DNA of 64,000 nucleotides from Tolypothrix carrinoi HA7290-LM1. GTDB lineage: Bacteria > Cyanobacteriota > Cyanobacteriia > Cyanobacteriales > Nostocaceae. The stretch covers positions 32,001 to 96,000 of the forward strand of contig JAHHIK010000009.1 in NCBI GenBank assembly GCA_019358935.1. The letters run 5' to 3'. The position numbers and the translations under genes were made by a program. Below the pieces are notes generated by a model. The model was given only the letters and a program-made list of their open reading frames with translations, was not told the DNA's origin and searched no databases. Below, piece after piece: positions 11,124-27,869 of the stretch. The number at the start of each line of letters is the position of its first letter. The first letter of the stretch is position 1.

Positions 11124-11786
11124 TTAAAAAAGTGATAATTGGGGATTATTTTCCTCTGTAGATTGATTGTTTAAGAGGGGTTTTTGCTTAAGCTTTTTAC
11201 CCCATTCGTTACTTGCACCCTTTACCACATAAGCGCGGATATCGGTGGCGAGAGTTTCATAATCATGCTGAATTTGTTTGTAATTGATTGGCGTTATACC
11301 AATACTTTCCCAAAGTTTATCGTAATCATAATTTGGAAATGGTTTGTGTTTGGAGAGAGTAGTATGTGAAGCCCAAAGGTATACGTTTGTCCACTCCCAA
11401 GATAGTGGAACTTCAAAAGTAATTGGCATTATTACAGCAAGCACTTCGCTTGGCGTAGCAAGTTTCCCTACCTCACCTTTATCTACCTCCTCTAGGATTG
11501 TATCTAGTCTGTCAACTACAATTGCTTGCCACACCCAATTAGGAATAGCATCCCTCCATTCTCGCCGACCAGTGATTGTGGGACCAGCTAGATATTTAAT
11601 TAATTGTGCATCCACCTCTGCTAGTTCTAACAAACAGGCGAATACCTTTCTATCCATACCCATGCTGGCTAGAATCTTAAGCATTTTTTGAATATTTGGA
11701 GTTAGTATTTTTTCTCCTTTTAATTTACTATTTTTGATTGTTTGTTCAATATCAAACAGGCTTTGTTGTTGCATTTTAACCTCCAT
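11124..11786 (-). CDS. Hypothetical protein with clamp-binding-like motifs at both ends
   Basis: N-terminal QQSLF and C-terminal PQLSLF*; directly downstream of holB. Confidence 0.7.
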   Translation of the reverse strand: MEVKMQQQSLFDIEQTIKNSKLKGEKILTPNIQKMLKILASMGMDRKVFACLLELAEVDAQLIKYLAGPTITGRREWRDAIPNWVWQAIVVDRLDTILEEVDKGEVGKLATPSEVLAVIMPITFEVPLSWEWTNVYLWASHTTLSKHKPFPNYDYDKLWESIGITPINYKQIQHDYETLATDIRAYVVKGASNEWGKKLKQKPLLNNQSTEENNPQLSLF

Positions 11787-11847
11787 ATAAAAAGCCGTCA
11801 GCTAATTATTACTAGCTGGCGGCTGCCTTCATCTTTTGGGGATTTTT

Positions 11848-12660
11848 TTAGCGCAAGAGTAGGTTATCCCATACGTTTCTAGGTGATACGTGACATTGAA
11901 ATTGTTCTCTTGCTGTCGTAAAGAAAGCGAGCAATCCCGTCTTTTTAGTCTTTTCCCACCATCTTGTCTCTAAGTAGGTGAGTAATAAAGCTTGGGTTGA
12001 TTTATCCTGTTTACTTGTCCAATTACTCACTTCTAGGGCTGTAATTACATTTTTGGGAGGTACTTGCAGTTGGTCGAGTATGCTTTCTGGTATGGAATTT
12101 AACAGACTGTGGAATGCGATCGCACGACCAGGACTGCCTAAACAAAGTTCGAGTATGTCTTGATGGAGGTAGATTTTATGGTTTTCCAGAATAGTTTTTA
12201 GTTCATCAATAGGTAGTTGAGCAAATGGGATTATTTGACACCTACTTTTTATGGTAGGCAGTATATTCTGGGCTTGGGATGTAATGAGGATAAATATTCC
12301 TTTTCCTGGTGACTCTAAGATTTTAAGTAAGGCGTTGGCGGCGTTTAGCGTGATACTGTCGCAGTCGTGGATAATTACTATTTTGCGATCGCCTTCAATA
12401 GGAGAGGTTGAAAGGAAGGCGATCGTTTCCCGTACCTGTTCTACTCCGATAGTAGAATTGTCTTCTTGCGGACGCACTTCCAGCATATCTGTGGTGCTAC
12501 AGATGTAGTCAGCAAATAGTCGGGCAGTTTTGGTTTTACCTACCCCTTCGACGGTGCTGGTAAATAGGTAGGCGCTTGAAATTTGATTTTGGGCAATCGC
12601 ATTATTTAAGATTAGTTTTGCGGTATGCTGCCCGATTATCTCGTTAAAGAGGTTGTTCAT
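11848..12660 (-). CDS. holB: DNA polymerase III clamp-loader delta-prime subunit
   Basis: AYLF..GVGKT, AANALLKILESP, TIKSRCQ, GSPGRA; ATGA overlap with holA. Confidence 0.9.
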   Translation of the reverse strand: MNNLFNEIIGQHTAKLILNNAIAQNQISSAYLFTSTVEGVGKTKTARLFADYICSTTDMLEVRPQEDNSTIGVEQVRETIAFLSTSPIEGDRKIVIIHDCDSITLNAANALLKILESPGKGIFILITSQAQNILPTIKSRCQIIPFAQLPIDELKTILENHKIYLHQDILELCLGSPGRAIAFHSLLNSIPESILDQLQVPPKNVITALEVSNWTSKQDKSTQALLLTYLETRWWEKTKKTGLLAFFTTAREQFQCHVSPRNVWDNLLLR

Positions 12661-13610
12661 AGGGTGCAGATTTTGATGATGGTGGGGGTGAAGTTGTCAA
12701 TGCCAGACTTGAGTTCACCTTCAAGTTGGATTAGTGCTACGAGTATTTGTTTGAGTTTAACGACGCTTACAGCTTCGACTTCTTTTTTGAGGAAGTACAG
12801 CCTTTTGGGGTTGCTGAGTTCGGCGAGTGTTGAGATTTTATTGTCGGGCAGTTTTTCTTCTACCCCAGCTTTCGTAATTAACCAAGTGCGGAAGTAACTT
12901 ATGAGGGTGGCGACTATTTTAAGAGGGTGTTCATCCTCAACTAGTAGGCGGTGGAGTATTTGTCCTGCTGTATCGGCTCTACTATTTTTAATGGCGTGGG
13001 CGAGTTCGGTACAACTGATATTGTTGTTGCTTATAAGTGACTGAACATCTCCTAACTCCAATTTTTGCCCCTGAGCGTAGATAGCAAGTTTGGTTAATTC
13101 GCTATCGAGCCGTGCAGTATTGTTTCCAATTGCCTCCACTAGATAGGTAGTGGCGGCGGGGACAAGCTCTAAGGAATGGGTTTTTACTGCTGCTTGAATT
13201 AGTTTTTCTATTCCTTGTTTATCCCAACTGGGGATGAGAGGAAATTCTTCAACTTCGGCGTGTTTGAATAGTGCTTTGACGACTTTGCTTCTACCATCAG
13301 GTTTCCAAAGTGAGGTAATTAAAAGTAGGTTTGGAGTAGGTACTTTGTCAAGATTTTTTAAGAGTGAGGAAATTATTTCATCCGAACATTTATTGAATAT
13401 TGTCCCATCTGTAATGTGGACAATTTTTCCACCTTCCCCCAAGGGAACTGTCATTACCTCTGTTATTGCCTGGGGTATTGCTGCTGCTTTGTTATCAACT
13501 CGAATGTAGTTGAAGATTTCCCACTCTTGGGTAGTAAAATCTTTAATTAATTCTTCCACCCTTTTTGATATTGAGTGGATATCTTCCCCATAAATTAATT
13601 TTACTGGCAT
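12657..13610 (-). CDS. holA: DNA polymerase III clamp-loader delta subunit
   Basis: LIYGED, KPDGRSK, GNNTARLDSELTKL, EHPLKIVATL and NPKRLYFL match cyanobacterial HolA. Confidence 0.9.
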   Translation of the reverse strand: MPVKLIYGEDIHSISKRVEELIKDFTTQEWEIFNYIRVDNKAAAIPQAITEVMTVPLGEGGKIVHITDGTIFNKCSDEIISSLLKNLDKVPTPNLLLITSLWKPDGRSKVVKALFKHAEVEEFPLIPSWDKQGIEKLIQAAVKTHSLELVPAATTYLVEAIGNNTARLDSELTKLAIYAQGQKLELGDVQSLISNNNISCTELAHAIKNSRADTAGQILHRLLVEDEHPLKIVATLISYFRTWLITKAGVEEKLPDNKISTLAELSNPKRLYFLKKEVEAVSVVKLKQILVALIQLEGELKSGIDNFTPTIIKICTL

Positions 13611-14088
13611 GGGTATCTTGCTAAATGTTTATATATAAGTGCGTTAGCTAGCAAGTGGTGGTAAATAAATTTTCAAGTTATTGATATTTGTAGTTAGTCA
13701 TTATTTCTCCTGTAAATTAGATGGTTAAATTTAATTTTTACAAATTTTATCAATTCGATTCTTTATCATTAGAGTTATTTTAATTAACTTATTTATCCCT
13801 AAATTCATTATTTATAACTTTTGACTGGAGTCTATAAAAAATTAACGCTTGATTTTAATTTTGATGCTATTAGATAACATCCTAGGCTGAAGAGAAGACT
13901 CGCAATTAATGTAAGTACCGCAATTCTAACTAGCGACATTGCGAATAAATCATCTAAATTTTTATAAACTAATCTAGGATTATTATTTCCTATTGGAGTT
14001 ATTATCCACATTACTTTTTGTATATTTAGTGTGAAAAATATTACCACAGACTTATTAATTAGGCTGTAGTAATATCATTTTTATCCTT

Positions 14089-14874
14089 TTATAGGATTCC
14101 CTTGTTGCCAACCGATTGTATATCAACTTTACTTTGGTTGACATCTTGAACTGAATTTATAACTTGCTGAGTACCGTGATATTTGCGCCAGCCATCTAAG
14201 TCGCTTAGGTATTGCAACAGCGCAGATGGACCAGCTACCTGATATAGCGAGATGGCTGATTCCCACTCCCGAAAATTTGCTTTTTTATCGTTGAGAATTT
14301 TGATAATGGCACTGGGAAGTTTGTATCGAGTGCCACTATTTAAATTAATGTGCGGTGTGGTTTCTAGAAGTAGTTCCTGTTCGGATAGGGGTACACCGCC
14401 ATCTTTAAGATTTATCTCGTTTAGTTGGGCAGTTATACCTGAGAGAGGTAGGGTTTGTTGGGTTATACTGGCGACTAATATTTTCTGTTTAGTCTTCCTA
14501 GATTTGACAACTACAGGGTTTTTGGGAATGGGTATTAAGTAGCTTTGTGGAAGTTCAAGTGATAGCTGTTCTTTGAGTCGGTAGGGTAAGGTTTGTTTTT
14601 GGGCTGGGGTAATCTCGTAGGAGAAATTGGCTGTTTGTCTGGGGTCGCCAAACTTTCGGAGTTTGATTCTTACCTTGTAAGATATACTTCCTTGAATGAG
14701 TGTATGACTGTCAATAACTGTAGGTATACTATGTTCCCACCATACAATTTCAACAACTCGGTCGCCGTCTAATGAGTTATAGACATTGGTTAATCTGGCG
14801 TAGGGCTTTACTTCAAGGAAGTTATTTAACCACTTGCGTTGTTTTTTGTTGAGCAGTGATAATTTTTTAGCCAT
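14089..14874 (-). CDS. Hypothetical protein directly downstream of the family-B polymerase
   Basis: 261-aa ORF starting 2 nt after the polymerase stop; internal EQLSLEL. Confidence 0.65.
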   Translation of the reverse strand: MAKKLSLLNKKQRKWLNNFLEVKPYARLTNVYNSLDGDRVVEIVWWEHSIPTVIDSHTLIQGSISYKVRIKLRKFGDPRQTANFSYEITPAQKQTLPYRLKEQLSLELPQSYLIPIPKNPVVVKSRKTKQKILVASITQQTLPLSGITAQLNEINLKDGGVPLSEQELLLETTPHINLNSGTRYKLPSAIIKILNDKKANFREWESAISLYQVAGPSALLQYLSDLDGWRKYHGTQQVINSVQDVNQSKVDIQSVGNKGIL

Positions 14875-14876
14875 TG

Positions 14877-16691
14877 TTAGAAAAGAGTCAGTTGTTTGCC
14901 GCTGTTTAGCATTTTAGGGTTTGCAATTTGCAGGATTTCTACTCGTTTTTGGGCGAGTAATTTGATGTAATACTGTGATGAATACTTTTGTAGGCTGTTG
15001 ATGTCTGTTACACCCAGAATGCTGTAATAATAAGTCACGACATCTCCGGGTTTTCCAAGTTTGAGAAGTTCTTTTTCACCCTCTTTAATTCTGCGAGTAA
15101 TGCACAAGTTTTCTTTTGGATATTCCCTTGATAAAATATGGGATAAAATGTGGGTGTAATACTCTTCTGCTGCTGATATATCTTGGATTAGGAGAGTTAA
15201 ATACTGAATGGAAAACTCTTTCTCTAGTTGCGAGCGATCGCGATTGCGCCAGTTGCCTTTGGTGATGATTTTCCCGTGCGGAAGCCATAGGAGGTAGTTT
15301 TTGGTTCCTCTTTCCGGGATAAACATCGCCGAAGCGATAAACTCTAGTTTGACGGTTATCCCTTCAGGCAGTTGAGATTGAAGTAAACAATGTATCTCTT
15401 CTGGATTGGGGTGGGTGAAAAACACCCCGTCAGTGTCAACTTCCACGGGAGTACCCCCTTCATAAGTGATAATTTCAATCATGAGTTTGAGTACCTTTCT
15501 GCTGTAGGCTGTCACCAAAGCCGCAGCCTCCATATCGTTGAAGGCGAGTTCAGATGTGCCGAAGAAGCCAAATTCGGAGTTAGCTAGAACTTTGACAGAT
15601 TCTCTCTTCTCCTTGGCAGCAATATTTCCACTAGATGCAAGTTGTTCCAGTCTAGATTTTTCATTCACCAGATATTGCAGGATACTTAGCCCAATACGTT
15701 TTGTATCTTTGATTGAGCAAATACCCTTGTCTAGCATTGCCCAAGGGTGCATTGAGCTAATATCTGCATATCCGACCTTTCTATACAGTCCAGGGATAGA
15801 GTAGGCCATGCCTCCCTGGAATTTGTACTTGCGATCGGGTTTGGGTTTATAGCCTGGATAATGATGCTCAAATATTCGCTCCCACTTGGTACCATTACCA
15901 GCAAGTGCTAGCTGCTGGAGATTCATTTCCGGTACAATTAGTGCTTCGTAATAGTATGACGGTACAAGTCTGTTAGCAATTAACTGCGTGTCTTCGAGGT
16001 CGTACACAAGATACTCTTTTAGCCGTTTCCATCCCTTACTGTTGGGGCCATCTTTCCAACAAGCGAGGATTTCCTCATAAGGAAGAACCAGTCTGGTGTT
16101 TTGGCGCAGTCCCATGTCCAATACAGCTTTTTTGAGCGACCTTCCGTTGGTTAGCTTTTTGGTGACAAAATCCCACCTGAGAACGCAGATGTAAACGTCT
16201 ACATGCTGGCTATTTTGGACAAATACCTCCCGAATTTTTAGCGGTTCGCCTCGTACCTTGGCAGTTCGGATAGTCCGAGATTTGGATGCAATTTTAAATG
16301 GGTGTTTTATACCATGCAGGTTGGATCTAGTGATAATGAATGGAATGTCAAATTCCATCCCGTTGTAGGTGAAAATTACATCTGGATTTTTCTTCTTTAA
16401 GTGATTGAAAAAGTCTGTGATAGTTTGTGCTTCTGAAATATTCATAAAAACAGTAGGATATCCCATTTCATCCATACACCCGATGGCATAAATGCGATTT
16501 TCAATTGGGTCTATACCTGCTGTTTCAATATCGACAAATAACTGTGAAAGTTCCTGGTATGGCTTGAGTTGTACTTGCGGTTGCCAGGGTTGAATTGGAG
16601 TGGGGTCTTTCCAATAAATGTCTAGTTTATCTTCATCGACAATGATTATACCCCTAGATTTTTTGACAAAATCCCTGTGGTTATAACTCAT
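14877..16691 (-). CDS. polB: Family B DNA polymerase with a 3'-5' exonuclease domain
   Basis: Exo I VDIET, Exo II YNGMEFD, Exo III YLVYD; polymerase motifs DISSMHP, KVLANSEFG, VDTDG; C-terminal KQLTLF. Confidence 0.9.
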   Translation of the reverse strand: MSYNHRDFVKKSRGIIIVDEDKLDIYWKDPTPIQPWQPQVQLKPYQELSQLFVDIETAGIDPIENRIYAIGCMDEMGYPTVFMNISEAQTITDFFNHLKKKNPDVIFTYNGMEFDIPFIITRSNLHGIKHPFKIASKSRTIRTAKVRGEPLKIREVFVQNSQHVDVYICVLRWDFVTKKLTNGRSLKKAVLDMGLRQNTRLVLPYEEILACWKDGPNSKGWKRLKEYLVYDLEDTQLIANRLVPSYYYEALIVPEMNLQQLALAGNGTKWERIFEHHYPGYKPKPDRKYKFQGGMAYSIPGLYRKVGYADISSMHPWAMLDKGICSIKDTKRIGLSILQYLVNEKSRLEQLASSGNIAAKEKRESVKVLANSEFGFFGTSELAFNDMEAAALVTAYSRKVLKLMIEIITYEGGTPVEVDTDGVFFTHPNPEEIHCLLQSQLPEGITVKLEFIASAMFIPERGTKNYLLWLPHGKIITKGNWRNRDRSQLEKEFSIQYLTLLIQDISAAEEYYTHILSHILSREYPKENLCITRRIKEGEKELLKLGKPGDVVTYYYSILGVTDINSLQKYSSQYYIKLLAQKRVEILQIANPKMLNSGKQLTLF

Positions 16692-16804
16692 GAACTAGAG
16701 ACTTTTCTAATTGTGAATGAAAGATTTTTCGCGTTCAGGATATATTGCAATACTTGTGGGTACTGACTGAGGAAGTATTCTATATCTTTAATACTGGTAA
16801 TCAT
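16688..16804 (-). CDS. 38-aa small ORF overlapping the polB start
   Basis: MITSIKDIEYFLSQYPQVLQYILNAKNLSFTIRKVSSS*; its TGA overlaps the polB ATG (ATGA). Confidence 0.4.
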   Translation of the reverse strand: MITSIKDIEYFLSQYPQVLQYILNAKNLSFTIRKVSSS

Positions 16805-17288
16805 TAACTCTTTATTTTATTCGCACTAGTTAATAATTGGATACTCTAGATTAGAATACTTCAGATTAAAAATAATTTTAATATCAGAATACACCCCATG
16901 ATTTTAAATTTTACTACGTAACAAGAGGAAACTAAACTTATAAACTTATCTAGACTATTTATATTTATAAGATTATGTTTATTCATACTAACTTTAATTA
17001 AGATTATTACCTTTATGGCGTATGCTTGTGCCGTGGTTAACCTCGGTCGCAAAATATTTATAATATTTTTATTAAAGAAAAACCAATTGCTTATCCAATA
17101 CATATACTGATGCTATTGGTTTAATTTTAATATATTTACTGTTTTGCTATTATTATCGTGAAAAAATACGTACTTGAATGGGAAAAGAGAAAAATTATGT
17201 TTAAATGTTAAGCCCAAAAATAAAAAAAATTAATTAAAAAGTTGAAACCTCTTTTAATTGCCAAAACTAAAAGAGGTTTTAACTTATG

Positions 17289-17519
17289 CTATGCTTGTTG
17301 GCTGTTGTTCAAGTATGCTTGAAATCGTTGGACTATGGCTTTGATTTCTTGTGCAGCTAGTACAGCAGCGAAAGTATCATTTGCTAGTTCTTGGTTAATA
17401 AACATCCCATGTTCATTTTTAGGACTTTCTTCGATTTGTCCTCCTGCATCATTTTCAATTTGTTCTCCTAATTCTTCTAAAGTTTTTAATTGTTGTTGAA
17501 ATAATTTGCGATATTCCAT
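17289..17519 (-). CDS. Small hypothetical helical protein
   Basis: 76-aa ORF co-oriented between dnaX and polB, followed by a hairpin. Confidence 0.55.
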   Translation of the reverse strand: MEYRKLFQQQLKTLEELGEQIENDAGGQIEESPKNEHGMFINQELANDTFAAVLAAQEIKAIVQRFQAYLNNSQQA

Positions 17520-17627
17520 GTATTTAACAAAGAAATTGTAAGTTGTATAATATTAAGAGCGTTAGCTATAGCTGCGGTTTTATTTGAACTAATAACTAAC
17601 TCTCCCTAATCAGGGAGAGTTGCTATT

Positions 17628-18917
17628 CTAAGCTTGTTGCAGTTGTGTTTGTTGCAACTTTTGAATAACTTCCACCCACACTAAGGCTTTCTTTCCATTA
17701 ATGGGTGTAAGCTTTTGCCAGTGTTCCTGTAACTGTGTCTGCGATAAGTGGGGTAACTGTTCTTTTGCCCAGTTAATTGCGTCTTGGGCAGTTTTCCAAT
17801 CCTTCCAGGGTTGAGTTTGGGAACTATTCTTTGTGGTTTGAACTATCTCGATAATGGTAGCTTCCATCCACAAGTGCGCGTTTTCATCTCGCATAAGATT
17901 TTGACGTGCCATCAGGAGTGCGATCGCACTGTGGATGTGGTTAACGCTCCACGATTTGGAGATTGTTGTAAGGGAATTCCAGGTTTCCTCTTCGAGTTGG
18001 GTAATATTTCTGCCATCGGGGTTGGTTTTGCAGACAAGCAGGTCTTTTAGAAAGCTGACAAGGCTTGTGTGGATGGTGATTGGGTGCTTGCCGCATTCAA
18101 TCCAATTTTGGAGAATGCCTAAATTGCCTGTAATTTGTCTAAGAGTGATATTTTCAAAGAAAGTGACTAAATCGTATTCGGGGATAATACCCGATAGTTC
18201 CCATACCCAATTGGGAGTGATTTCTCCTTCTCCCAGCAAGGTTAGTTGGTCTAAAAGTTTGAGTGAGTCGCGCAAGTGTCCCTTGTTTGTTTTGGCGACG
18301 GCTGTTAATGCTAGCGGATTGATATTTATACCTTCCTGGTGGGCAACTTTTTCTAGGTAATTTACAACTAGTGAGAGGGTAACCCTTCTAAAATCGAACT
18401 TTTGGCAGCGGGAGGTAATAGTTTCTGGGACTTTGTGTACCTCGGTGGTACAGAAGATGAACACAACATGGGCTGGTGGTTGTTCTAATGTTTTGAGTAA
18501 TGCTTGCCACGATTGGTGGGAAAGGGCATGACATTCATCTATTATTAGGATTTTGTACCTACCCTCGATTGGTTTAAGTTGAAGGTTGGATACCATCTCG
18601 CGGATGTTATCTACACCAGAGTGGCTGGCGGCATCAAGTTCGGTTACATCGAGAGATGAGGAGTGGGAAATAGTCTGACAAGAATTGCACTCGCCACAGG
18701 GTTCGGTTGTTGGTTCCTCTGTTGATTGACAGTTGAGAGATTTGGCGAGAATGCGCGCTGTAGTCGTTTTACCCGTACCCTTGGGACCGGTAAATAGATA
18801 GGCTGGGGCAGTCTTTTTGAGCAAGATCGCATTATTCAGGGTGCGTACAATATGTTCTTGTCCGACTATTTGTGAAAGTTGCTGGGGGCGATACTTGAGA
18901 TGCAGTGGTGTGTACAT
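17628..18917 (-). CDS. dnaX: DNA polymerase III clamp-loader subunit gamma/tau
   Basis: LKYRPQ, GPKGTGKTT, zinc module C..PCGEC..C, ELDAASHSGVD, IIDECH, TITSRCQ. Confidence 0.95.
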   Translation of the reverse strand: MYTPLHLKYRPQQLSQIVGQEHIVRTLNNAILLKKTAPAYLFTGPKGTGKTTTARILAKSLNCQSTEEPTTEPCGECNSCQTISHSSSLDVTELDAASHSGVDNIREMVSNLQLKPIEGRYKILIIDECHALSHQSWQALLKTLEQPPAHVVFIFCTTEVHKVPETITSRCQKFDFRRVTLSLVVNYLEKVAHQEGININPLALTAVAKTNKGHLRDSLKLLDQLTLLGEGEITPNWVWELSGIIPEYDLVTFFENITLRQITGNLGILQNWIECGKHPITIHTSLVSFLKDLLVCKTNPDGRNITQLEEETWNSLTTISKSWSVNHIHSAIALLMARQNLMRDENAHLWMEATIIEIVQTTKNSSQTQPWKDWKTAQDAINWAKEQLPHLSQTQLQEHWQKLTPINGKKALVWVEVIQKLQQTQLQQA

Positions 18918-18987
18918 ATTTGAGAAAGTCAAATTTTCTAAATGGATTTGTGTATAGCCAGTAAAAATGCTGGCTATACTTGTTGGT

Positions 18988-20304
18988 CTATAAAGCTGCT
19001 GTTTCTACTGGTTTTGCTTCCTGCTTGCGCTTGCGGGATTTTGACTTGCTGGTGCTAGCTGTATCAGACGGGGATGTTTCTGTTATGCTGGTTGTTTCAT
19101 TAGATACCTCTTGTTCGGAAATATCTACTGTTTCACTTTCTGGCTTGGAAGTGGTGGCAAGATTTTCTGGTTTATCGAAATCTTGGACGTCTACGGGCAT
19201 AATTAGTGTTAATTGGTCGAGCAATCCACCTACAGGAGAAATGATGACTGGTTGGAGGGGTTTGTTAAATCTGAATAGGATTTCATCGGTTGAAATGTGT
19301 TTGAGTGCTTCTTGTAGATAGCTACTGTTTACCCCAATACCGATGTTTTCCCCTATACTGGTTTGGGTTTTCATAAGTAAAGAATCTACCGCATCGCCAA
19401 TATCAGTATTACCTGTCATTAATGTTGCTTGTTGATCGTTCACCTCCCACAGGATTTTAACAATCTTGTGTTTTTTCTCTGCGAAATGGCTGATTCTTTT
19501 GAGAATAATTTCCATACCCTTGCGCTCTACAATTAGCTCGTTGGCAAAGCTTTTAGGTATAAGGTTGTTGATACGGGGAAATTCTCCTTCTAACAACCTG
19601 GATGTCAGTTCGGCATTTGGCAAGATAAACTGGATGGTGTTGTTTGCGACTTTGAGCGTACAACTGTTATTTTCGGCTGTTGTCGCCAAGATTTTTGCCA
19701 ACTCGGTGAGGCTTCTTCTAGGGACTGTGAATGATAGTGGTTCGTAGTTTCGCTCCAGCTTGGAAGATACAAACGCAAGGCGGTGTCCGTCGGTGCTGGC
19801 GCAACTCCAATTTTCACCTTGTAACTGAAAATGTACGCCTGTGAGGATGAGTTTGGTTTCGTCTGCGCTGCTGCAATACAGACAAGCTTCCAAGGCAGCT
19901 TGTAGCTTCTTGCTAGGAATGCTGATTTCGGTAGGGTTTTCTGTTTGTGGGATGCTTGGAAAATCTTCTGGATTTCCTCCTATAATACGACATTTTCCCG
20001 TGCTGTGGCTGATAACACAGGCGCGATCGCTTACTTCAATGTCCAGTTCGCCGCTTCCTAGATTGTTAACTGTATCGACTAGTAGTTTGGCGTTTAAAGC
20101 GACTACACCTGAGCGTATAATATTAATTATCGCTGTAGTTTTGATACTTACATTCAGGTCAGTACCAATGACGGTAAGTCTGCCCGAATCCGAGGCTTCG
20201 ATTAACAAACTTCCGAGTATAGGGTCTACTGGTTTTGTGGATATGCCGTTTTTGGCTGTTTCTAAGAGTTCCGCCAGTACAGATTGAGTAATTATTAGTT
20301 TCAT
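18988..20304 (-). CDS. dnaN: DNA polymerase III beta sliding clamp with a C-terminal extension
   Basis: PILGSLLIEA, GTDL, STDGHRLA, SRLLEGEFP, LIMPV, then a 67-aa low-complexity tail. Confidence 0.95.
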   Translation of the reverse strand: MKLIITQSVLAELLETAKNGISTKPVDPILGSLLIEASDSGRLTVIGTDLNVSIKTTAIINIIRSGVVALNAKLLVDTVNNLGSGELDIEVSDRACVISHSTGKCRIIGGNPEDFPSIPQTENPTEISIPSKKLQAALEACLYCSSADETKLILTGVHFQLQGENWSCASTDGHRLAFVSSKLERNYEPLSFTVPRRSLTELAKILATTAENNSCTLKVANNTIQFILPNAELTSRLLEGEFPRINNLIPKSFANELIVERKGMEIILKRISHFAEKKHKIVKILWEVNDQQATLMTGNTDIGDAVDSLLMKTQTSIGENIGIGVNSSYLQEALKHISTDEILFRFNKPLQPVIISPVGGLLDQLTLIMPVDVQDFDKPENLATTSKPESETVDISEQEVSNETTSITETSPSDTASTSKSKSRKRKQEAKPVETAAL

Positions 20305-20376
20305 GGTGTATTTTGCCAGGGCATGATTTGTAAAGTGCTAGCGTGTTAACTAGCACCCTTGAAGTTTTACAAATGG

Positions 20377-21288
20377 TTAGTAAGGCAATTTGTCTAATTC
20401 GGATGAATTAGCTGGTGAGATTCCGACTGTTTCTACTGCACTTGGTAGTAGTAAATTATTATCTAGACCTGGAATTGCCATAGGTTTGTTGGGTTCGAGG
20501 GATTCCCATACGTAATTCTTAACGTCAGCTTTAAACCCTACGAAGTAGTTTTGCCATGTTTCTAGTGTTGGGGTTTCGTGTTCGACTACCTTGCAAGCAA
20601 AACTTTTTTGTTTGGTTCCAGCTTGTTCTCTAGCTGTTTTGAAGCAAAAGATTCCTAGAGAATAAAACAAGGTATTTTTTTGTTTGGCTGGGATACCATT
20701 AATAATTGAATGGCAAGTATTTAATTCTTTGCAGAATTCTTGCCAATGAGTGGCAAAGGATGCTTGATTTGCGCCCATTGCCTTATAAGTTAGGGGAATT
20801 TGATGCAGGGGTTGATTATTTTTGTCTAGCAGGAAGACTTGAAAATACTGTAGGTTGCCAATATTTTCGTCTTCTTTCATTTCAAGAGTGTACTTTCCTA
20901 AAATTATTGTTGACGAGTTTGGTTCTTGGGATTGCTTTCTATCAAATCCCAACACTGGCGATTTGGGACACACCAACATTCTGGGATTTTGGATAAGAAT
21001 ACCCTTTTCTTCACCACCGCTAGACTCAAACGTGTAGGTTATGAGTTGCTTGTCGTCAAAGTCCATCCAACCTGCATTTGCCATTTGGTCTACACTTATG
21101 AAATACCCGCAGGTTTGTGAGGTAGTACCGCGAAGTGCTTGGATGCGAGGGAGTCGTGCATTTGGGTCTAAAAACTCAGGCGAACAAAATTCATCTTTTT
21201 CTGTTACTTGAGGAATTGTTGTTGAATGAGTTTCGGCAGTATTACTTTTTGTTTGAGTTTCATTTAAATTGGCTTGAGTTTTAGCCAT
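20377..21288 (-). CDS. Conserved cyanobacterial plasmid protein (DUF5895-like, from recall)
   Basis: 303 aa; LPRIQALRG...GYFI motif; ends ELDKLPY. Confidence 0.55.
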   Translation of the reverse strand: MAKTQANLNETQTKSNTAETHSTTIPQVTEKDEFCSPEFLDPNARLPRIQALRGTTSQTCGYFISVDQMANAGWMDFDDKQLITYTFESSGGEEKGILIQNPRMLVCPKSPVLGFDRKQSQEPNSSTIILGKYTLEMKEDENIGNLQYFQVFLLDKNNQPLHQIPLTYKAMGANQASFATHWQEFCKELNTCHSIINGIPAKQKNTLFYSLGIFCFKTAREQAGTKQKSFACKVVEHETPTLETWQNYFVGFKADVKNYVWESLEPNKPMAIPGLDNNLLLPSAVETVGISPANSSELDKLPY

Positions 21289-21402
21289 ATTTATCCTTAT
21301 TGAACTAGTTCATATACCCTGTGCATTTGCATATGCCGTGATAAAAAATAAAGTTGCCTGTTATAAACAAGTAACTTAAAAGTTAATCTTGGAAGTAATT
21401 AT

Positions 21403-21663
21403 TTAAGTAATCTCTTCTAAGTCGTATGAATATTCTCCTTCTAAATACTCATTTTTAGTCTTAATAAGTTTGTGATACGTTTTTTCTAAATTGCTGATTA
21501 ATTCTTGAAGAACTAGCGTGGTTTCAGTAGTGAAAGTTAGACTCACTGTTGTGCCAATTGAATTATGTATTGCGACTGTTTGTTCATCTGGACTACCGTA
21601 CACTGTGACGCTACTTTCTTTTCCAGGAATAAATCTGTAGGATGTGATTGTCTGAATTGTCAT
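21403..21663 (-). CDS. Hypothetical protein
   Basis: 86-aa ATG ORF co-oriented in the block. Confidence 0.5.
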   Translation of the reverse strand: MTIQTITSYRFIPGKESSVTVYGSPDEQTVAIHNSIGTTVSLTFTTETTLVLQELISNLEKTYHKLIKTKNEYLEGEYSYDLEEIT

Positions 21664-21890
21664 TTTACTTCTTGGCTATTTTGGTTTTTTTTGCAACATA
21701 TTGTTGACTAAATTAGTGATATTACTTAGCTTTAAACTAGCTAGTTTGCACTTGCTTACAGCATCTTCTAACTTCCAACTCTTGCTATTCAAGTATTTTG
21801 TAGCTAATGTGCTTCTCTCATATGGGAAATAGGTATGTTATATACCTATTCCTATTTTCGTCAACCTGCCAGTATACAATGCGTTTATAA

Positions 21891-22031
21891 TAGACCTGTC
21901 CGCAAATAAAGCTCAAAATAGCTGAAACCCTTACATAGCTTACTTTTTAGCTCAGGGAAGAGAGAAAACTCTAAAACCCTCTCCAGAGCTAGGTTTCAGG
22001 CAAATAAAGTTATCATTTCCGGATAAGTCTA
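21891..22031. mobile_element. 141-bp MITE-like element
   Basis: Imperfect 17-bp terminal inverted repeats tagacctgtccgcaaat / atttccggataagtcta; no coding content. Confidence 0.6.
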
Positions 22032-22036
22032 ATACA

Positions 22037-23098
22037 TTAAGGCTTGTATATTTTGATGATGCGGGTGGCTACGCTTGTGGGGTTATTTGATTGCAAAAAG
22101 GCATCTTTGGGTAGAGACTCATCATATAAATTCCAATTTTCTAGCCATTCTTTAAAATCCTTATATTTATTGTTGAAGAATACTGACTCTGGAACTATTG
22201 CTATCAGGATTCCTCCTGAATGAATTAACTTCCACGCATGGTAAATATGTTCAATTAATTGAGAGAAGGGAGGGTTCATAATGATATGAGAGTATAAATT
22301 TTCGGCTGTACAACCTAGAAAATCTCTACCTACTAAGTTGAACCCTTTCAATTCGAGGATTCTACGTAGAGTTGGGTTAATCTCTACTACTTCTAAATTG
22401 ACTTGATGATATTTATTGAGTATGGATTCGGCAATACAGCCAGAGCCAGCGCTGGGTTCAAGTATGCGAGAGCTTTCATTAATTTCTGCTAACTGAATTA
22501 GGCGATCGCAAACAGGAGGTGGGCTGGGGAAGAAGTCTCCAGACTTCATTCCAATGATTTTTAACTCCAGCCGATTTAGCTCTTGTTGAGTAGTATTAAC
22601 CTTATCAGGTTTAACAACTTTCTGAATTTCAGCTATCGCAGACATAATCTCGCCTGCGGTGCAAATACTTGCGCGGTAGAGAGACTTTATCCTATCTTGA
22701 TAATACTCATTGGAGAGAATTTCTTCTACCTCTTCGAGAGTCCTTGCTCTTTGAGAGATTTTGTACAGTGCTTCTGCTTGGGACTTTTGGGAGATGCCCC
22801 GCAGCACTTCGGGGGTATTTCCCACAAACCACATTTGGGCTATAGCAAGTAACCAAGATTGGATTGTTTGTAGTTCTACTCCTTCGGCGATAATTGATTG
22901 AGCGATTGTTTTGCGGCGTTTGGTTGCCCGCTGTTTGTTTATGGCAGGATTGAGCTTATTGTCAATTGATTGTTGCATCGAGGTGGCAAGTTCTTGCAGT
23001 TTCGCGGCTTGCTTCGGGTTGGGAGTGTTGAGATTGAAGGTGTAGATTTCGCCGGGGGTTGTATGTTCTGGGATTATTTTAAAGAGCGATAGTTGCAT
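22037..23098 (-). CDS. Amino (N6A/N4C-type) methyltransferase, probably acting on DNA
   Basis: DFFPSP, ILEPSAGSG (motif I), IIMNPPF (motif IV); likely start MQLSLF at 23098. Confidence 0.8.
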   Translation of the reverse strand: MQLSLFKIIPEHTTPGEIYTFNLNTPNPKQAAKLQELATSMQQSIDNKLNPAINKQRATKRRKTIAQSIIAEGVELQTIQSWLLAIAQMWFVGNTPEVLRGISQKSQAEALYKISQRARTLEEVEEILSNEYYQDRIKSLYRASICTAGEIMSAIAEIQKVVKPDKVNTTQQELNRLELKIIGMKSGDFFPSPPPVCDRLIQLAEINESSRILEPSAGSGCIAESILNKYHQVNLEVVEINPTLRRILELKGFNLVGRDFLGCTAENLYSHIIMNPPFSQLIEHIYHAWKLIHSGGILIAIVPESVFFNNKYKDFKEWLENWNLYDESLPKDAFLQSNNPTSVATRIIKIYKP

Positions 23099-23399
23099 TT
23101 TCTTGTAGATCCTTGAGCGCGCATTTGACAATGAGTGATTCTTCTGTACCCCAGACTTTTATTTCCCAAGGAGTATTTAGGCGTTCGCTTGGGCGAATTA
23201 CAGCTTTAGTGCATTTGTCCTTACGGGTTATCCATACAAGGAAGCTTTCGGCTTTTTCCTTAGAGTTAAACCCAAAGTAGGTAGTTTTTCTTACTCCCGT
23301 AGGGCTGGTAATGGTGGCGACTCGCGGAGATAAAATGTTAAATGTCCAACCATCGGGGGTAAGTTCAACTTTTTTGACTTTAATTTCTGGGGAGTTCAT
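23079..23399 (-). CDS. Hypothetical protein
   Basis: 106 aa; overlaps both neighbours, consistent with an operon. Confidence 0.6.
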   Translation of the reverse strand: MNSPEIKVKKVELTPDGWTFNILSPRVATITSPTGVRKTTYFGFNSKEKAESFLVWITRKDKCTKAVIRPSERLNTPWEIKVWGTEESLIVKCALKDLQENATIAL

Positions 23400-24070
23400 A
23401 ATTCAACTTCAGGAATGGCATCTAGATATTCTTTAGTTGTAATTTCCCTATTCATCCACTTGTGATGGATGATTTCTAAACTTTCTTGCTCAACTTCTTG
23501 TTGAATTTCCTCTACCGCAAACTGTGTAATAATAGACAACAGTCTTTCTTTGAAAGCTATGTGTTTTACTTCTGAATAGGTGAATTGGTAAATATCCGCT
23601 GTGTTGACGAACAAGTAGATTAGATTAATTTTTTCCGCTGGTAATTGGGTTTTCTCATAGAGTAAGAATAATCTTAGTTGAGTATGAAATGAATTCTCTA
23701 AAGACTGAAAATTTGATGGTTTTTGGATAGTCCAGTCCAGTGCAATTACCTGTTGTTCCTGATAAATGATTAAGTCATAATTAGCGTGGACTAACTGTGA
23801 CTTGTAGAGATACTGCGCTTCGGCATTCCATTGTTTGTTACCAGGAATTTCTAGAAATGGTAGCAGCACTTTTACCCACTTGCCTAATTGAGGATATGCC
23901 TTTAAGAATGGTTCTACAGGTAGTCCTAGCCCAATCTGCTGCATGATGATGTGAAACTTGCCACCAAGTTTTTCACCTTGGCTAATTGGTGATGTACGTA
24001 TGGTGTTTTTACCTGAACTTTTACTTTCACATTCAAGCTTTTCTAACAGACTTGGATTAAATCTGTCCAT
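23396..24070 (-). CDS. PD-(D/E)XK (RecB-like) nuclease-fold protein, possibly inactive
   Basis: G..FH, E, YDLII, LDWT (DWK expected), QLRLFL. Confidence 0.6.
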   Translation of the reverse strand: MDRFNPSLLEKLECESKSSGKNTIRTSPISQGEKLGGKFHIIMQQIGLGLPVEPFLKAYPQLGKWVKVLLPFLEIPGNKQWNAEAQYLYKSQLVHANYDLIIYQEQQVIALDWTIQKPSNFQSLENSFHTQLRLFLLYEKTQLPAEKINLIYLFVNTADIYQFTYSEVKHIAFKERLLSIITQFAVEEIQQEVEQESLEIIHHKWMNREITTKEYLDAIPEVEL

Positions 24071-24134
24071 AATAAAAATCTGTCCTAAAAAATACTCAGG
24101 ACAGATATGTGTTAACTGTTGTGGTTGTTTTTAT

Positions 24135-24968
24135 TTAGACAGTGTGATATTTATCTAAGTTTTTAACTGTGGTTTGGATACTGCGACAAGACATAGAAAT
24201 TAGGTTGAAGTAGCTAACAAACTTGCTTATTTTTCCTATTAGGGTTAACTCTAATAGGTATTGGGATGCAATGGCTGATGTCATGCGGTTTATGAATAGA
24301 GTTTGGTGATTAAGTATTTGAATTTCCGCACACGAGAGGTTGTTGCTGCTAAGTTCTTCAGGCTTTGGGATTAGTAATTCGGGATGTACCAGCGCTGGGG
24401 ATGGTAGGTGTTTCCAGAATGCGGGTTTATCTGGGTTATTGGAGGCGGTTACAATATTGAAATCAGCGTGGGTTCCTAATATAACTTGTCCTGATAGTGA
24501 ACTGTTACCGCAGTCTAGCCAGAAGAAGTCAGCTTGTTCGCGCGGGCTGTTATATTTTAAACACGAGTGAATTTGTGCCCTGGCGGCAGCATTGTCCACG
24601 CAGCCGATGATAATTGTGAGGGTATTCCACTTGTAATTTTCTACATGGTTAGGGGAAAACCAATCTGAAATTGCTGTTACTACTACCCCATATTTGGCAC
24701 TGCACCTGGTGGCTAGACATTGTGCTTTGGGAAAACTTATCTCAGATGGTTGGTAATTTTGGCGTGCGATATTTTTAGGTTCGACGCTATCTCCATCGAT
24801 GATGGTGAGGTTAGCCTTTTTCTCGTTTTGCTGTAGCTGTACTATGAGGCGGCAAACATCTTCGGCAAGATACCCCCCTGTGCCACCAGCCCCTACTAAA
24901 ATAAAATTTACTTTGCGGTGGGGACGGGGGAGAACGGGTAAGAAAAATTCTGTGTCGATTTGTATCAT
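24135..24968 (-). CDS. ThiF/E1-like adenylyltransferase of a PRTRC-type cassette
   Basis: LVGAGGTGG, DGDSVEPKNIARQ, GCVDNAAAR, WLDCGN, GQVILG, LSCAE. Confidence 0.9.
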   Translation of the reverse strand: MIQIDTEFFLPVLPRPHRKVNFILVGAGGTGGYLAEDVCRLIVQLQQNEKKANLTIIDGDSVEPKNIARQNYQPSEISFPKAQCLATRCSAKYGVVVTAISDWFSPNHVENYKWNTLTIIIGCVDNAAARAQIHSCLKYNSPREQADFFWLDCGNSSLSGQVILGTHADFNIVTASNNPDKPAFWKHLPSPALVHPELLIPKPEELSSNNLSCAEIQILNHQTLFINRMTSAIASQYLLELTLIGKISKFVSYFNLISMSCRSIQTTVKNLDKYHTV

Positions 24969-25537
24969 AACTCAAATATCAAATTAGGGTCAATTTCAAT
25001 GAAGTGGTTGTATGCCCCTACGCGGGTGTAGATGGTAGGCTTTTTGTCAACTGTGCCGATAATTCCAAATATGCGGAACTTTCCTGACTCCTCTTGGTTG
25101 TCTTGGTTGCTGGGGATTGCTCTCATACAGCCGTGTGAGTGGATTTCAACCAATGTTTGGCTGTATCTGAGGTTTGTATTTTCCAGCGAGCGCACATGAG
25201 TTGAGGATGCTTCTTGTGCTGGTGTGTGACACCACCATTGGCTATTTGCAACCCCCAAATAAAAAAGGATTTCTTGATGGGGATTAATCCGCGCAGCATT
25301 GATGATGTCTGCAATTATGCTTGCTGGCACTTTTGGTACATTTAACTTGAAATAGGGTTGTATTTGTGCCAATCCTATTATGTGGGTATGGGCGATTTGC
25401 AAGCAGATTTCTAATTCTGGGCGGTGCGATCGCGCATATACTCCATCAGATGCAAGCCAGTATTCCTGAAGTTTTTGGCTCTTTGGGGGAAGGTTGTGAC
25501 TGACAGCGTAGTTATAGCTGATGAAGAGGTTATTCAT
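24965..25537 (-). CDS. JAB/MPN metallopeptidase (PRTRC protein A-like)
   Basis: Upstream E (HQEIL) and EIHSHG...PSNQD JAMM motif. Confidence 0.85.
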   Translation of the reverse strand: MNNLFISYNYAVSHNLPPKSQKLQEYWLASDGVYARSHRPELEICLQIAHTHIIGLAQIQPYFKLNVPKVPASIIADIINAARINPHQEILFYLGVANSQWWCHTPAQEASSTHVRSLENTNLRYSQTLVEIHSHGCMRAIPSNQDNQEESGKFRIFGIIGTVDKKPTIYTRVGAYNHFIEIDPNLIFEL

Positions 25538-26246
25538 GTTGGAATAGATACTTGGGTATATCGTTTGGCGTTTTGATTGTTTGATACTCTCTAGCGACTA
25601 ATTCCTTTGCTGGGAAGGATTTTGTGGTTCGTAGGCTGATCAACAAGTCGCAGACATTGTGGGGGTGTGATTTTGATTTGTTTTGGCTGAAGTCTTGGTT
25701 GAAAGGGCTGTTCCAGAACAATTTCCAGGTTTTATTGATTGAGTCGGGATTACAAGCAGGTGGGATGTTCCTACCGAAGCAAATTTTATTTGAGTCGTCC
25801 CAAATATTTGGTAACGGCGCTTTGTATAATTGACAATCCTGCTTGAAGGTTCTTCCTTTAACTGCCCATAAGTAGTAGCTGCTGTTGCATCCAGCGAATA
25901 TAAATGCTGGCATGGGAATAGTTATTGTATTGTTTCCTTCTGGAGTTTGTATTGAGACTGAATATTTTTGGGGCGGGTAAAATTGAATAATACCTTCTCC
26001 ATTTGGTGTTATTTCCCACCACAGCGTATTGGGAGATAACCATCCTGAATTTACAGTTTTGGCTGTAAACGCTTTTTCCACAGCTTCAGGCGATAGAAAT
26101 TTATGCTGTGTTTTATTACCTTCTTTTTCTATCAGTACAAACTGTCCTTTGAGAATGATTAGATGCCCTAAAATTTCCTGCTGTGGAATGTTATTCAGTA
26201 TGACTTGAGTGTTTAATCCTGTATTTATATGGCAGCTTGATTCCAT
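25530..26246 (-). CDS. Prokaryotic E2 family protein (PRTRC protein B-like)
   Basis: IPMPAFIF, LWAVK, LYKAPLPNIW...KICFG, FWNSPFN. Confidence 0.8.
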   Translation of the reverse strand: MESSCHINTGLNTQVILNNIPQQEILGHLIILKGQFVLIEKEGNKTQHKFLSPEAVEKAFTAKTVNSGWLSPNTLWWEITPNGEGIIQFYPPQKYSVSIQTPEGNNTITIPMPAFIFAGCNSSYYLWAVKGRTFKQDCQLYKAPLPNIWDDSNKICFGRNIPPACNPDSINKTWKLFWNSPFNQDFSQNKSKSHPHNVCDLLISLRTTKSFPAKELVAREYQTIKTPNDIPKYLFQHE

Positions 26247-26947
26247 ATTTTGACTACCTTCTTTCGATTGGCTATTGATACTTCTATCCAGTCTGATAAC
26301 TCTTCAAATTGGTTTAATATGATGCTGGCTTCTTGCCATTTATCGGCGATCAGTAATACATTTTCTTCACTCCACTCCCACCAATATCCAGTTTCATAGG
26401 TTGTGTCTAACCAAATATTGCCTGTTGAATAGTCGAGAACACTCAGGCTAGTTACTAAATATTTGATTGGTGATTTTAACTTGTTACAGATTTTTACAAG
26501 TTTTTGAAAGTCTATATTTTCCACATCTGCTATATAATCAGGTTTAAACCCAAATTCTTCTTCCCAATATTCAAGGCTATACCCACTACCCATAACCGAG
26601 AGTAAGAATTTTTCGCTTGCCTCTAAATCTTCAAGGTTTTCATTCCACCATTCAAGTCTTTGTGGTAATATAGCTATACTTTCATACTCTCCGTATGTTT
26701 CTATTTCATCAATAAATTCAACTGGAAACAAGTTTGAATTTACTAGGTGAATAAATTCAATTTCTCTATCTGAATATATGCAATCAGGATGTGTTTTTCT
26801 GTTTATAGGTGTTTTTGACTCATACCATTCTTCTGCAAATAGTTTTTGATATAAACTGAGTAAACTTGCTTTTTGAGAGAAGTTTTCCAGATAGGTGATT
26901 GCTTCTGTACAGGTGATGGGTATTTTAAATAGTTCTAGTGATATCAT
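26225..26947 (-). CDS. Hypothetical acidic protein in the PRTRC cassette (positional equivalent of protein F)
   Basis: Lies between the Ubl and E2 genes and overlaps E2; STGNIWLD motif. Confidence 0.55.
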   Translation of the reverse strand: MISLELFKIPITCTEAITYLENFSQKASLLSLYQKLFAEEWYESKTPINRKTHPDCIYSDREIEFIHLVNSNLFPVEFIDEIETYGEYESIAILPQRLEWWNENLEDLEASEKFLLSVMGSGYSLEYWEEEFGFKPDYIADVENIDFQKLVKICNKLKSPIKYLVTSLSVLDYSTGNIWLDTTYETGYWWEWSEENVLLIADKWQEASIILNQFEELSDWIEVSIANRKKVVKIWNQAAI

Positions 26948-26991
26948 GATGAACGATAACTGCCGCTAGTGTGGATAGCGGCGTTGCTTAA

Positions 26992-27414
26992 CTACAATAC
27001 GGGATAATTGCTGGATGCAGGGGGTTGTTGTCCGAGGGACTTAAAAACCTTATCTGTATATGTTTCCCAGTTTTCCCCCATTTTGATTGTCTGATTTATT
27101 TGTGAGCGCATACTAATTAAAACTTCTAAAGTTAGTTGATTTTTTATTTCTAGAAGCTTCAATTCCCAAGCTAATACAAACGCTGGGTTAATTTGTTCAG
27201 ATGCTAATTTGAGTTCTGTGATGCAATTACCCTTGGTTCCAGCGCGTTTAACAAGTCTTATTTCGGTTGTTTCTCCTGTAGTTGTACGAGTAATTTCGGC
27301 ATTGGCATATTCTGGAAAATAAGTGCTGATTGCCAGTCTTAGCTTGTTGTCATCTATTGCTGTATTTGGTGGGATAGGAACTTGCTGCCCTTCGATAATA
27401 GCGATATAATTCAT
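26992..27414 (-). CDS. Prokaryotic ubiquitin-like protein (PRTRC protein C-like) with a 78-aa C-terminal extension
   Basis: YFPEYANAEI...LVKRAGTKG is the protein C signature but occurs internally, ending at residue 62 of 140. Confidence 0.75.
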   Translation of the reverse strand: MNYIAIIEGQQVPIPPNTAIDDNKLRLAISTYFPEYANAEITRTTTGETTEIRLVKRAGTKGNCITELKLASEQINPAFVLAWELKLLEIKNQLTLEVLISMRSQINQTIKMGENWETYTDKVFKSLGQQPPASSNYPVL

Positions 27415-27419
27415 GGCGA

Positions 27420-27869
27420 TTAGAATAGTGAAAGTTGTTGTTTATCCGACTCGTTTGGATGGAAGTTATTAGATAAATCTCGTTTTTGTACTTGTTTACG
27501 CTCCTGAGATTGATTAATATGATTAAGAGCAATCTTTCTTTTTTCGGCGGCTTCAATAATTTTAGGTAAGGCTACCTCTAATTCTTGAATACTTTCTTGA
27601 ATGATGGTTTGTTGGGTTATTTCCTGATAGCTAGCATTTTTGATAATGGGAGGTGCATTTTTAATACCAATGGAGAAAATAGCCTGTTGCTCGTCTGGAT
27701 AAATTTGGATGGTTATTAGATAGACTTTAGGGTTTGATATGCTGTTGCTGTTATCTTCATAATCATCTGTTTCATCACTATCTTCTAAGCTATTGTTGTT
27801 ACTAGAATTCAAATCACTACTGTAACTAGCTTTGGAGTTAGTTACACTTTCTTGCTCTTGATTGTTCAT
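27420..27869 (-). CDS. Hypothetical protein (positional equivalent of PRTRC protein E) ending QQLSLF
   Basis: ATG at 27869 overlaps the primase stop (ATGA); acidic N-terminus; stop lies 5 nt before the Ubl gene. Confidence 0.6.
   Translation of the reverse strand: MNNQEQESVTNSKASYSSDLNSSNNNSLEDSDETDDYEDNSNSISNPKVYLITIQIYPDEQQAIFSIGIKNAPPIIKNASYQEITQQTIIQESIQELEVALPKIIEAAEKRKIALNHINQSQERKQVQKRDLSNNFHPNESDKQQLSLF

What the first reader, a model, noticed from the sequence alone, without database searches (positions are those of the whole stretch)
11124..27440. Beta-clamp-binding motifs on four neighbouring proteins, including a member of the Ubl cassette
Seen: PolB ends KQLTLF; the 11124-11786 protein ends PQLSLF and begins QQSLF; the gene just upstream of Ubl (27420-27869) ends QQLSLF; the methyltransferase begins MQLSLF. 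The 14089-14874 protein has an internal EQLSLEL. Established: QL[S/D]LF is the consensus bacterial beta-clamp-binding motif. Inference: the plasmid encodes its own set of clamp partners. The 27420 protein could be an adaptor bringing the Ubl machinery to the clamp, and the methyltransferase could act at the fork.
Basis: partly seen in the sequence, partly recalled or inferred. Interest (0 to 1): 0.85.

Follow-up and report, generated by a model that had tools for sequence, protein, structure and literature searches.

The report
Plasmid proteins tagged for sliding clamp
On a cyanobacterial plasmid that carries its own DNA sliding clamp, four or five proteins bear the short tag that bacterial proteins use to dock on the clamp; one of them belongs to an untested ubiquitin-like tagging system, which gives a first testable clue that this system acts on replicating DNA.

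Summary
Observation confirmed. The region is a Nostocales conjugative-plasmid block, syntenic with pCC7120beta, encoding DnaN, a clamp loader, PolB and a type-6d (PRTRC-like) Ubl/E2/JAB/E1 cassette. Terminal QL[STD]LF occurs in 4 of 25 ORFs here against 4 of 6952 elsewhere in the genome. It is conserved behind variable linkers: PolB 41 of 42, methyltransferase 12 of 14, 11124 protein 28 of 31, and the gene before Ubl ('E') 36 of 38 cassettes, 9 of 11 sequence clusters. EQLSLEL fits the hexameric consensus. E is modelled as a small folded core with a disordered tail ending in the motif. 'Own set of partners' is overstated: the plasmid clamp's pocket matches the chromosomal one, and tags persist on plasmids without dnaN. 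That E links the Ubl enzymes to the clamp is inference; no E-cassette contact or clamp binding was measured. The cassette is in print (Iyer 2006); the clamp link was not found in my searches. The scan noted the same link before on other DNA (five notes, including a Nostoc-type plasmid).

The parts
11124..11786 (-). 220-aa (probably 216-aa) mostly helical protein of no known family, directly after holB; motif at both ends
   Evidence: No Pfam/NCBIfam/PHROG family over cut-off; 31 homologs; AF2 model low confidence, pLDDT 48
11127..11141 (-). C-terminal QLSLF clamp-binding motif of the 11124 protein
   Evidence: 28 of 31 homologs, after a variable linker; QTNLF in two 40-44% homologs
11754..11768 (-). 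N-terminal QQSLF, possible second, weaker motif
   Evidence: Q.[SD]LF in 21 of 31; L10 and F11 invariant in 29 rows, Q not; may be structural
11848..13610 (-). Clamp-loader delta' (11848-12660) and delta (12657-13610)
   Evidence: PF13177; TIGR01128 above cut-off
14089..14874 (-). 261-aa unknown protein 2 bp after PolB, with hexamer-type QLSLEL (14551-14568) and a second QQTLPL (14443-14460)
   Evidence: QL.L.[LF] in 32 of 47 homologs covering the site, Q[LT]xLx[IL] in distant ones; both Q and L columns conserved in 19 diverse rows; 76 of 389 family genomes have a homolog
14877..16691 (-). Family-B DNA polymerase with 3'-5' exonuclease; C-terminal QLTLF at 14880-14894
   Evidence: PF03104, PF00136 (weak); DIET, YNGMEFD, YDLED, DISSMHP, DTDG present; motif in 41 of 42 distinct homologs reaching the C-terminus, down to 39% identity
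17628..18932 (-). Clamp-loader gamma/tau (DnaX)
   Evidence: TIGR02397 above cut-off
18988..20304 (-). Plasmid-encoded beta sliding clamp (DnaN) with conserved peptide pocket
   Evidence: TIGR00663 255.6 bits against cut-off 137.65; K151, L154, T171, H174, L176, P243, N326, Y329, L367, M369, P370 invariant in 11 clamps including the chromosomal one
22037..23098 (-). DNA amino-methyltransferase (EPSAGSG...NPPF) with N-terminal MQLSLF (23081-23095)
   Evidence: Motifs; PHROG DNA methyltransferases; tag in 12 of 14 full-length homologs, also at 37-43% identity
24135..24968 (-). E1-like ThiF protein
   Evidence: PF00899; TIGR03736 135.5 bits, under cut-off 144.75
24965..25537 (-). JAB peptidase (EIHSH...SNQD)
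   Evidence: PF14464; TIGR03735 under cut-off
25530..26246 (-). E2-like protein, family D, invariant Cys156
   Evidence: PF14460 137 bits; alignment
26225..26947 (-). Helical F-position protein
   Evidence: Position and conserved charged residues; no family hit
26992..27414 (-). Ubl precursor: about 62 residues ending AGTKG, then a 78-residue extension that is a separate gene in some relatives
   Evidence: K61 and G62 invariant; split forms; no Pfam hit, so Ubl by position and by the GTKG shared with annotated PRTRC C
27420..27869 (-). 'E-position' protein, 149 aa: disordered N-terminus, three strands and two helices (51-122), disordered tail ending QLSLF (27423-27437); 5 bp before Ubl
   Evidence: AF2 model; motif in 14 of 15 close homologs and 36 of 38 cassettes

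Best explanation
The motifs are true beta-clamp-binding motifs. The plasmid loads a clamp (its own DnaN with its own loader, or the host's) on its DNA during vegetative replication or second-strand synthesis after transfer, and PolB, the methyltransferase, the 11124 protein and probably the 14089 protein dock on it as a tool-belt. The methyltransferase would so methylate newly made plasmid DNA. E is a two-part tether: a disordered tail docks on the clamp and a small folded core recruits or presents the type-6d Ubl enzymes, so that Ubl activation and transfer happen at clamp-loaded DNA. The tags are generic and should bind both clamps. Shown here: motifs, enrichment, conservation, intact pockets, E architecture, gene linkage. 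Inferred: binding (about 0.85), E acting with the cassette at the clamp (about 0.55), any conjugation target (unknown).
For: Enrichment 4 of 25 against 4 of 6952. Conservation: PolB 41 of 42, MTase 12 of 14, 11124 protein 28 of 31. E: 36 of 38 cassettes from several cyanobacterial orders, 9 of 11 clusters at 40% identity with the motif left out; 79 strict and 103 strict-or-loose of 134 distant core-domain hits, against 18 and 67 of 6977 genome ORFs. Specific to E: 0 of 38 Ubl, 0 of 40 F, 0 of 42 E2, 0 of 37 JAB, 0 of 40 ThiF carry a terminal motif. Motif lies at the tip of a low-confidence tail, as for known partners (PMC11139829). dnaN found on 13 of 16 cassette plasmids tested, whereas the window's DnaN matched only 64 of 72,556 plasmid records at E 1e-25; dnaN directly precedes PRTRC E on Sulfuricystis pSTJ1. 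Precedent for clamp-guided methylation: DNMT1-PCNA (PMC9690074, passage).
Against: No binding or expression data. The distant-homolog count is biased upward because the search profile held the motif; kin are not independent. Two E-position genes miss the pattern (L019 QRSLF; L039 none). Canonical PRTRC E proteins mostly end in a Q-less tip (TAELF, LASLL, PASLW, LAERF), so a strong motif is not universal. No E-Ubl, E-F or E-E2 fusion among 148 E-family representatives. Five cyanobacterial plasmids have dnaN without an E2 hit, and PolB is absent from many cassette loci, so replisome block and cassette are separable.
Confidence: 0.58

Rival explanations
1. E binds the clamp but is not an adaptor: it is a clamp competitor or regulator (titrating the pocket, steering host Pol III against plasmid polymerase), or is itself the Ubl substrate whose modification switches its clamp binding.
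For: E is small and largely disordered; no fusion to cassette enzymes; one E-family domain is fused to a methyltransferase instead (P0213); pocket competitors exist (SocB, PMC9690074 passage).
Against: E stays directly before Ubl in nearly all cassettes, and the same slot is kept in canonical PRTRC, which argues for work with the cassette; the substrate version is compatible with this.
Confidence: 0.22
2. The plasmid has an orthogonal replisome: the tags prefer the plasmid DnaN and keep plasmid and host machines apart.
For: DnaN, DnaX, delta, delta', PolB, SSB and Prim-Pol are clustered and syntenic; plasmid DnaN is only 33.5% identical to the chromosomal one.
Against: Pocket residues identical in both clamps; the tags are the general consensus; E with EQMTLL on W11 and MTases with QLS[LI]F on W17 and W18 lie on plasmids with no dnaN match; three other genome ORFs carry the same terminal tag.
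Confidence: 0.1
3. The cassette does not tag proteins but uses the Ubl as a sulfur or chemical carrier to modify DNA or nucleotides at the clamp.
For: E1 is of the ThiF family; other clamp-tagged neighbours are DNA-acting enzymes; F has conserved charged residues and was suggested to be an enzyme (PMC1779556).
Against: An E2-fold protein with an invariant Cys and a JAB peptidase are kept, as expected for protein conjugation; no sulfur-donor gene was seen in the block.
Confidence: 0.06
4. The tags are not clamp motifs but another terminal signal (for example a degron) or chance.
For: No direct binding data; internal look-alikes exist that are probably structural (QLRLF in the 23396 nuclease-like protein).
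Against: Exact consensus at both N- and C-termini and on a PolB C-terminus; enrichment and conservation.
Confidence: 0.04

Closest known systems
Bacterial beta-clamp-binding motif (pentamer QL[S/D]LF; hexamer Q-phi-x-[L/M]-x-[F/L])
   Same: Four exact or near-exact pentamers at protein termini, one hexamer (QLSLEL); C-terminal position on PolB as in E. coli Pol II (PMC11139829).
   Different: Carried by a DNA methyltransferase, a Ubl-cassette protein and two unknown proteins; the word 'methyltransferase' does not occur in that review's main text; all on one plasmid next to its own clamp.
Operon type 6d of Iyer, Burroughs and Aravind 2006 (PMC1779556)
   Same: [quoted passage not shown]
   Different: The passages seen name no E gene and no clamp link ('clamp' occurs once, as an author name). 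Function untested there.
PRTRC system (TIGR03735-03737 and partners), protein E (PF19556)
   Same: Gene order E-C-F-B-A-ThiF; Ubl ending TKG; E has a short folded part plus a low-complexity tail with a hydrophobic tip.
   Different: Scores under all equivalog cut-offs; no hit for C, E, F; Prim-Pol, not ParB, precedes E; E homology only hinted (hhalign 52%, 24 columns); Ubl has a fused C-terminal extension; the motif is a full QLxLF here.
Eukaryotic PCNA ubiquitylation (Rad18-Rad6) and DNMT1-PCNA (analogy; Rad18 mechanism recalled, DNMT1)
   Same: A clamp-docking factor joined to a Ubl cascade; a methyltransferase guided by the clamp.
   Different: No homology; no RING E3 here; no target shown.

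Membership tests
Beta-clamp-binding motif | Q-phi-x-[L/M]-[F/L] or hexamer consensus | tested here: met
   QLTLF, QLSLF x3, QLSLEL; N-terminal QQSLF of 11124 misses position 2
Beta-clamp-binding motif | Conserved in homologs, in a flexible terminus or loop | tested here: met
   inconclusive for the internal 14089 sites, whose flanks are also partly conserved
Beta-clamp-binding motif | Physical binding to DnaN pocket | not testable with these tools
DnaN clamp | Three beta domains and intact peptide pocket | tested here: met
   mapping to E. coli pocket residues by motif, numbering context recalled
Type-6d Ubl operon (Iyer 2006) | Ubl + JAB + E1-like + E2-like (Cys, downstream His) + helical protein | tested here: met
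   Cys156 invariant, downstream His only partly conserved; Ubl fold itself not modelled
PRTRC (TIGRFAM definition) | Members score above TIGR03735/36/37 cut-offs; C, E, F models hit | tested here: not met
   53.4 < 101.8, 135.5 < 144.75, 63.5 < 131.45; no hit for C, E, F
PRTRC (TIGRFAM definition) | PRTRC ParB directly before E | tested here: not met
   Prim-Pol precedes E; the window's ParB lies 20 kb away and was not scanned against NCBIfam
PRTRC protein E (PF19556) | Homologous N-terminal domain | tested here: inconclusive
   0 of 50 family members hit PF19556; hhalign 0.7% then 52%, E 1.4e-4; cross-scores at most 3.4 bits
Protein-conjugating Ubl systems | Ubl transferred to a target protein | not testable with these tools
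   No biochemical data

The most novel reading that the evidence does not exclude
A bacterial counterpart of PCNA ubiquitylation on a mobile element: E docks on the beta clamp and brings E2~Ubl to modify the clamp itself or a clamp-bound partner, switching which of the plasmid's clamp-tagged proteins (PolB, methyltransferase, 11124, 14089) or host Pol III gets access; JAB reverses it.
Probability: 0.2. Interest if true: 0.92.

Novelty: new variant of a known kind. Interest (0 to 1): 0.6.

Why it matters
Type-6d/PRTRC cassettes have been known since 2006 and sit on hundreds of plasmids (318 records matched one B protein), yet I found no target or function for them in the papers searched. A conserved clamp tag on the E-position protein names a place (the clamp) and a short candidate list of substrates, testable on pCC7120beta in the model strain Anabaena PCC 7120. 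It also adds a bacterial DNA methyltransferase family and two unknown families as likely clamp partners, and shows a plasmid that stocks a clamp tool-belt.

Tried and rejected
Co-folding of E core (44-128) with the Ubl precursor: no answer, scores 0.30 and 0.20 against mark 0.32, controls not folded; not used either way. E-DnaN, E-E2 and E-F were not co-folded (one job). Fold search with the E model: no Foldseek match at E 0.001, VIA best Z 4.8; uninformative. AF2 model of the 11124 protein too poor to search. ESM Atlas gave no usable hit for the 11124 and 14089 proteins. LexA-box pattern (recalled consensus): 15 matches against 16 expected, rejected. RNA runs: no RNA holder listed. Conserved lysines on the plasmid clamps are too many to single out an acceptor. 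DnaE found only on C176 and C34, not on C9. Literature: seven paper searches bearing on the link ('PRTRC'; clamp/ubiquitin-like/JAB/plasmid/prokaryotic E2; clamp-binding motif/methyltransferase/QLSLF; cyanobacterial plasmids/dnaN; bacterial Ubl/Bub/ParB-related; plasmid-encoded clamp/loader/PolB; 111 alr75xx tags) listed no title or abstract start describing a clamp motif on these proteins; I saw listings only, and the library lacks most subscription papers. PMC7544198, PMC7283527 and PMC5101192 (passages) and PMC3976300 (abstract) added nothing on the motifs. Supplements of Iyer 2006 were not opened and may list the E gene or neighbouring dnaN.
Full report
Setting. The window is G000:C9:32001-96000. 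The - strand block 9-32 kb encodes SSB, delta', delta, PolB, DnaX, DnaN, DUF5895, a methyltransferase, ThiF, JAB, E2-D, Prim-Pol and an MrfA-type helicase. The same order is found on Nostoc PCC 7120 pCC7120beta and Brasilonema pBOCT1, so this is a Nostocales conjugative-plasmid module (plasmid by synteny; the contig is not closed). The chromosomal clamp is on C71 (33.5% identical) and a third clamp on C173.

Observation. Terminal QL[STD]LF is in 4 of 25 ORFs of the block, 0 of 86 other C9 ORFs and 4 of 6952 ORFs elsewhere; composition predicts 0.002. Region and pattern were fixed after the fact, but the gap is large.

Conservation. PolB: 41 of 42 distinct homologs whose match reaches the C-terminus end in the motif, the miss being QLSIF; it holds at 39% identity (one N-terminal fragment set aside; many rows are close kin). 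Methyltransferase: 12 of 14 full-length homologs (9 partial rows set aside), including Gloeothece and Microcystis copies near 40% identity. 11124 protein: C-terminal motif in 28 of 31 homologs (misses: one truncated, one QLSLL, one with QPDLF and QANLF); the N-terminal site has invariant LF but variable Q, 21 of 31. 14089 protein: QLSLEL is the hexameric consensus of PMC11139829 (passages); QL.L.[LF] in 32 of 47 homologs covering the site, Q[LT]xLx[IL] in the rest of those inspected, plus a second QxxLPL 36 residues on; only 1.6% of genome ORFs hold QL.L.L. Being internal with partly conserved flanks, it is the least certain.

The E-position protein. 14 of 15 close homologs end QLSLF; the other is an E-F chimera. 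Of 43 loci examined, 38 had a Ubl hit; the gene before it ended in Q[LIMV]x[LF][FL] in 36 (misses L019 QRSLFDLPS, L039). With the motif left out these fall into 11 clusters at 40% identity, 9 with the motif; Ubl, F, E2, JAB and ThiF had none at either end. A profile search found 391 proteins at E 0.001; of the best 150, 134 passed a core-only rescoring, 79 with a strict and 103 with a strict or loose terminal motif, against 18 and 67 of 6977 genome ORFs (upward bias, as the search profile held the motif). AF2 gives a confident three-strand, two-helix core (51-122) between disordered ends: the build of a tether.

Which clamp. Pocket positions are invariant across nine family clamps, the chromosomal clamp and the C173 clamp. 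dnaN was found on 13 of 16 cassette plasmids tested by HMM; over all 44 E2-positive plasmid records, 31 have dnaN, 3 do not, 10 were not settled. But E keeps EQMTLL on a plasmid without dnaN, and two methyltransferase plasmids without dnaN keep the tag. The tags are therefore generic; a plasmid clamp is a frequent companion, not a private receptor.

Mechanism. Shown: motifs, enrichment, conservation, intact catalytic residues, pockets, linkage. Inferred: the plasmid loader places clamps on plasmid DNA; PolB extends, the methyltransferase follows (as DNMT1 does on PCNA, PMC9690074 passage), and E holds the Ubl cascade there. JAB would trim the Ubl after KG62, ThiF adenylate it and pass it to E2 Cys156. 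The target is unknown: clamp, a tool-belt partner, or E. Against the adaptor reading: no fusion of E with cassette genes in 148 representatives, canonical PRTRC E mostly ends in a Q-less tip (32 of 46 with terminal [LM][FY]; other tips), and replisome and cassette occur apart.

Comparison. The cassette is type 6d of Iyer et al. 2006, whose table already lists Anabaena (PMC1779556, passages); it works like PRTRC by gene order but fails the TIGRFAM cut-offs, and homology of E to PF19556 is unresolved. The paper searches listed under Tried and rejected showed no report of the clamp link. The scan's own notes record it on other DNA: e1-3129552 and e1-5206347 on cyanobacterial plasmids, e1-2301952 and e1-5327955 on other E proteins, e1-6219586 on a Ubl that carries the motif itself; these are leads, not support, and the last prompted my choice of co-folding pair.

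Verdict. Real, strongly conserved, a new variant built from known parts. Interest 0.6: it makes the function of a long-known, untested Ubl cassette directly testable; the PCNA-ubiquitylation-like reading has about 0.2 probability.

Noticed in passing
G000:C24:47307-51477 (L042): Second, divergent cassette in the same genome; its E-position gene ends QLTLFGV. A third clamp with dnaX and holA lies on C173, possibly the same plasmid.
   Followed up: partly
L080:12946-15078, L081, L085: A family-A polymerase (PF00476 for L080 and L085) replaces PolB in the same slot before the 14089 homolog, so the polymerase is exchangeable while clamp and loader stay.
   Followed up: partly
L013:28990, L049:17224, L080:18645, L081, L082: delta' subunits of more distant elements begin with an extension carrying QLxLL, in loci where no 11124 homolog was detected; the window's delta' lacks it.
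   Followed up: partly
L089:12161-15892, L091: Homologs of the 11124 and 14089 proteins lie together in another kind of element with no dnaN or PolB within 20 kb.
   Followed up: partly
P0213: A methyltransferase of the same type fused to an E-family domain ending QLFLFG; real fusion or read-through not checked.
   Followed up: no
G000 C28:42491, C46:35083, C66:36204, C70:28012, C79:20845: Other genome ORFs with terminal QLxLF look like three DNA methyltransferases, an AlkB-like protein and a uracil-DNA glycosylase (named by eye from motifs, not scanned): clamp tags may be common on cyanobacterial DNA-modifying enzymes.
   Followed up: no
window 26992-27414: The 78-residue extension after the Ubl's KG is a separate gene in Oscillatoria, Planktothrix and Pseudanabaena cassettes, consistent with JAB cleavage of a precursor.
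   Followed up: partly
L047:18474-23669: 1731-aa methyltransferase-helicase on the Calothrix plasmid ends KQLSLFEL.
   Followed up: no
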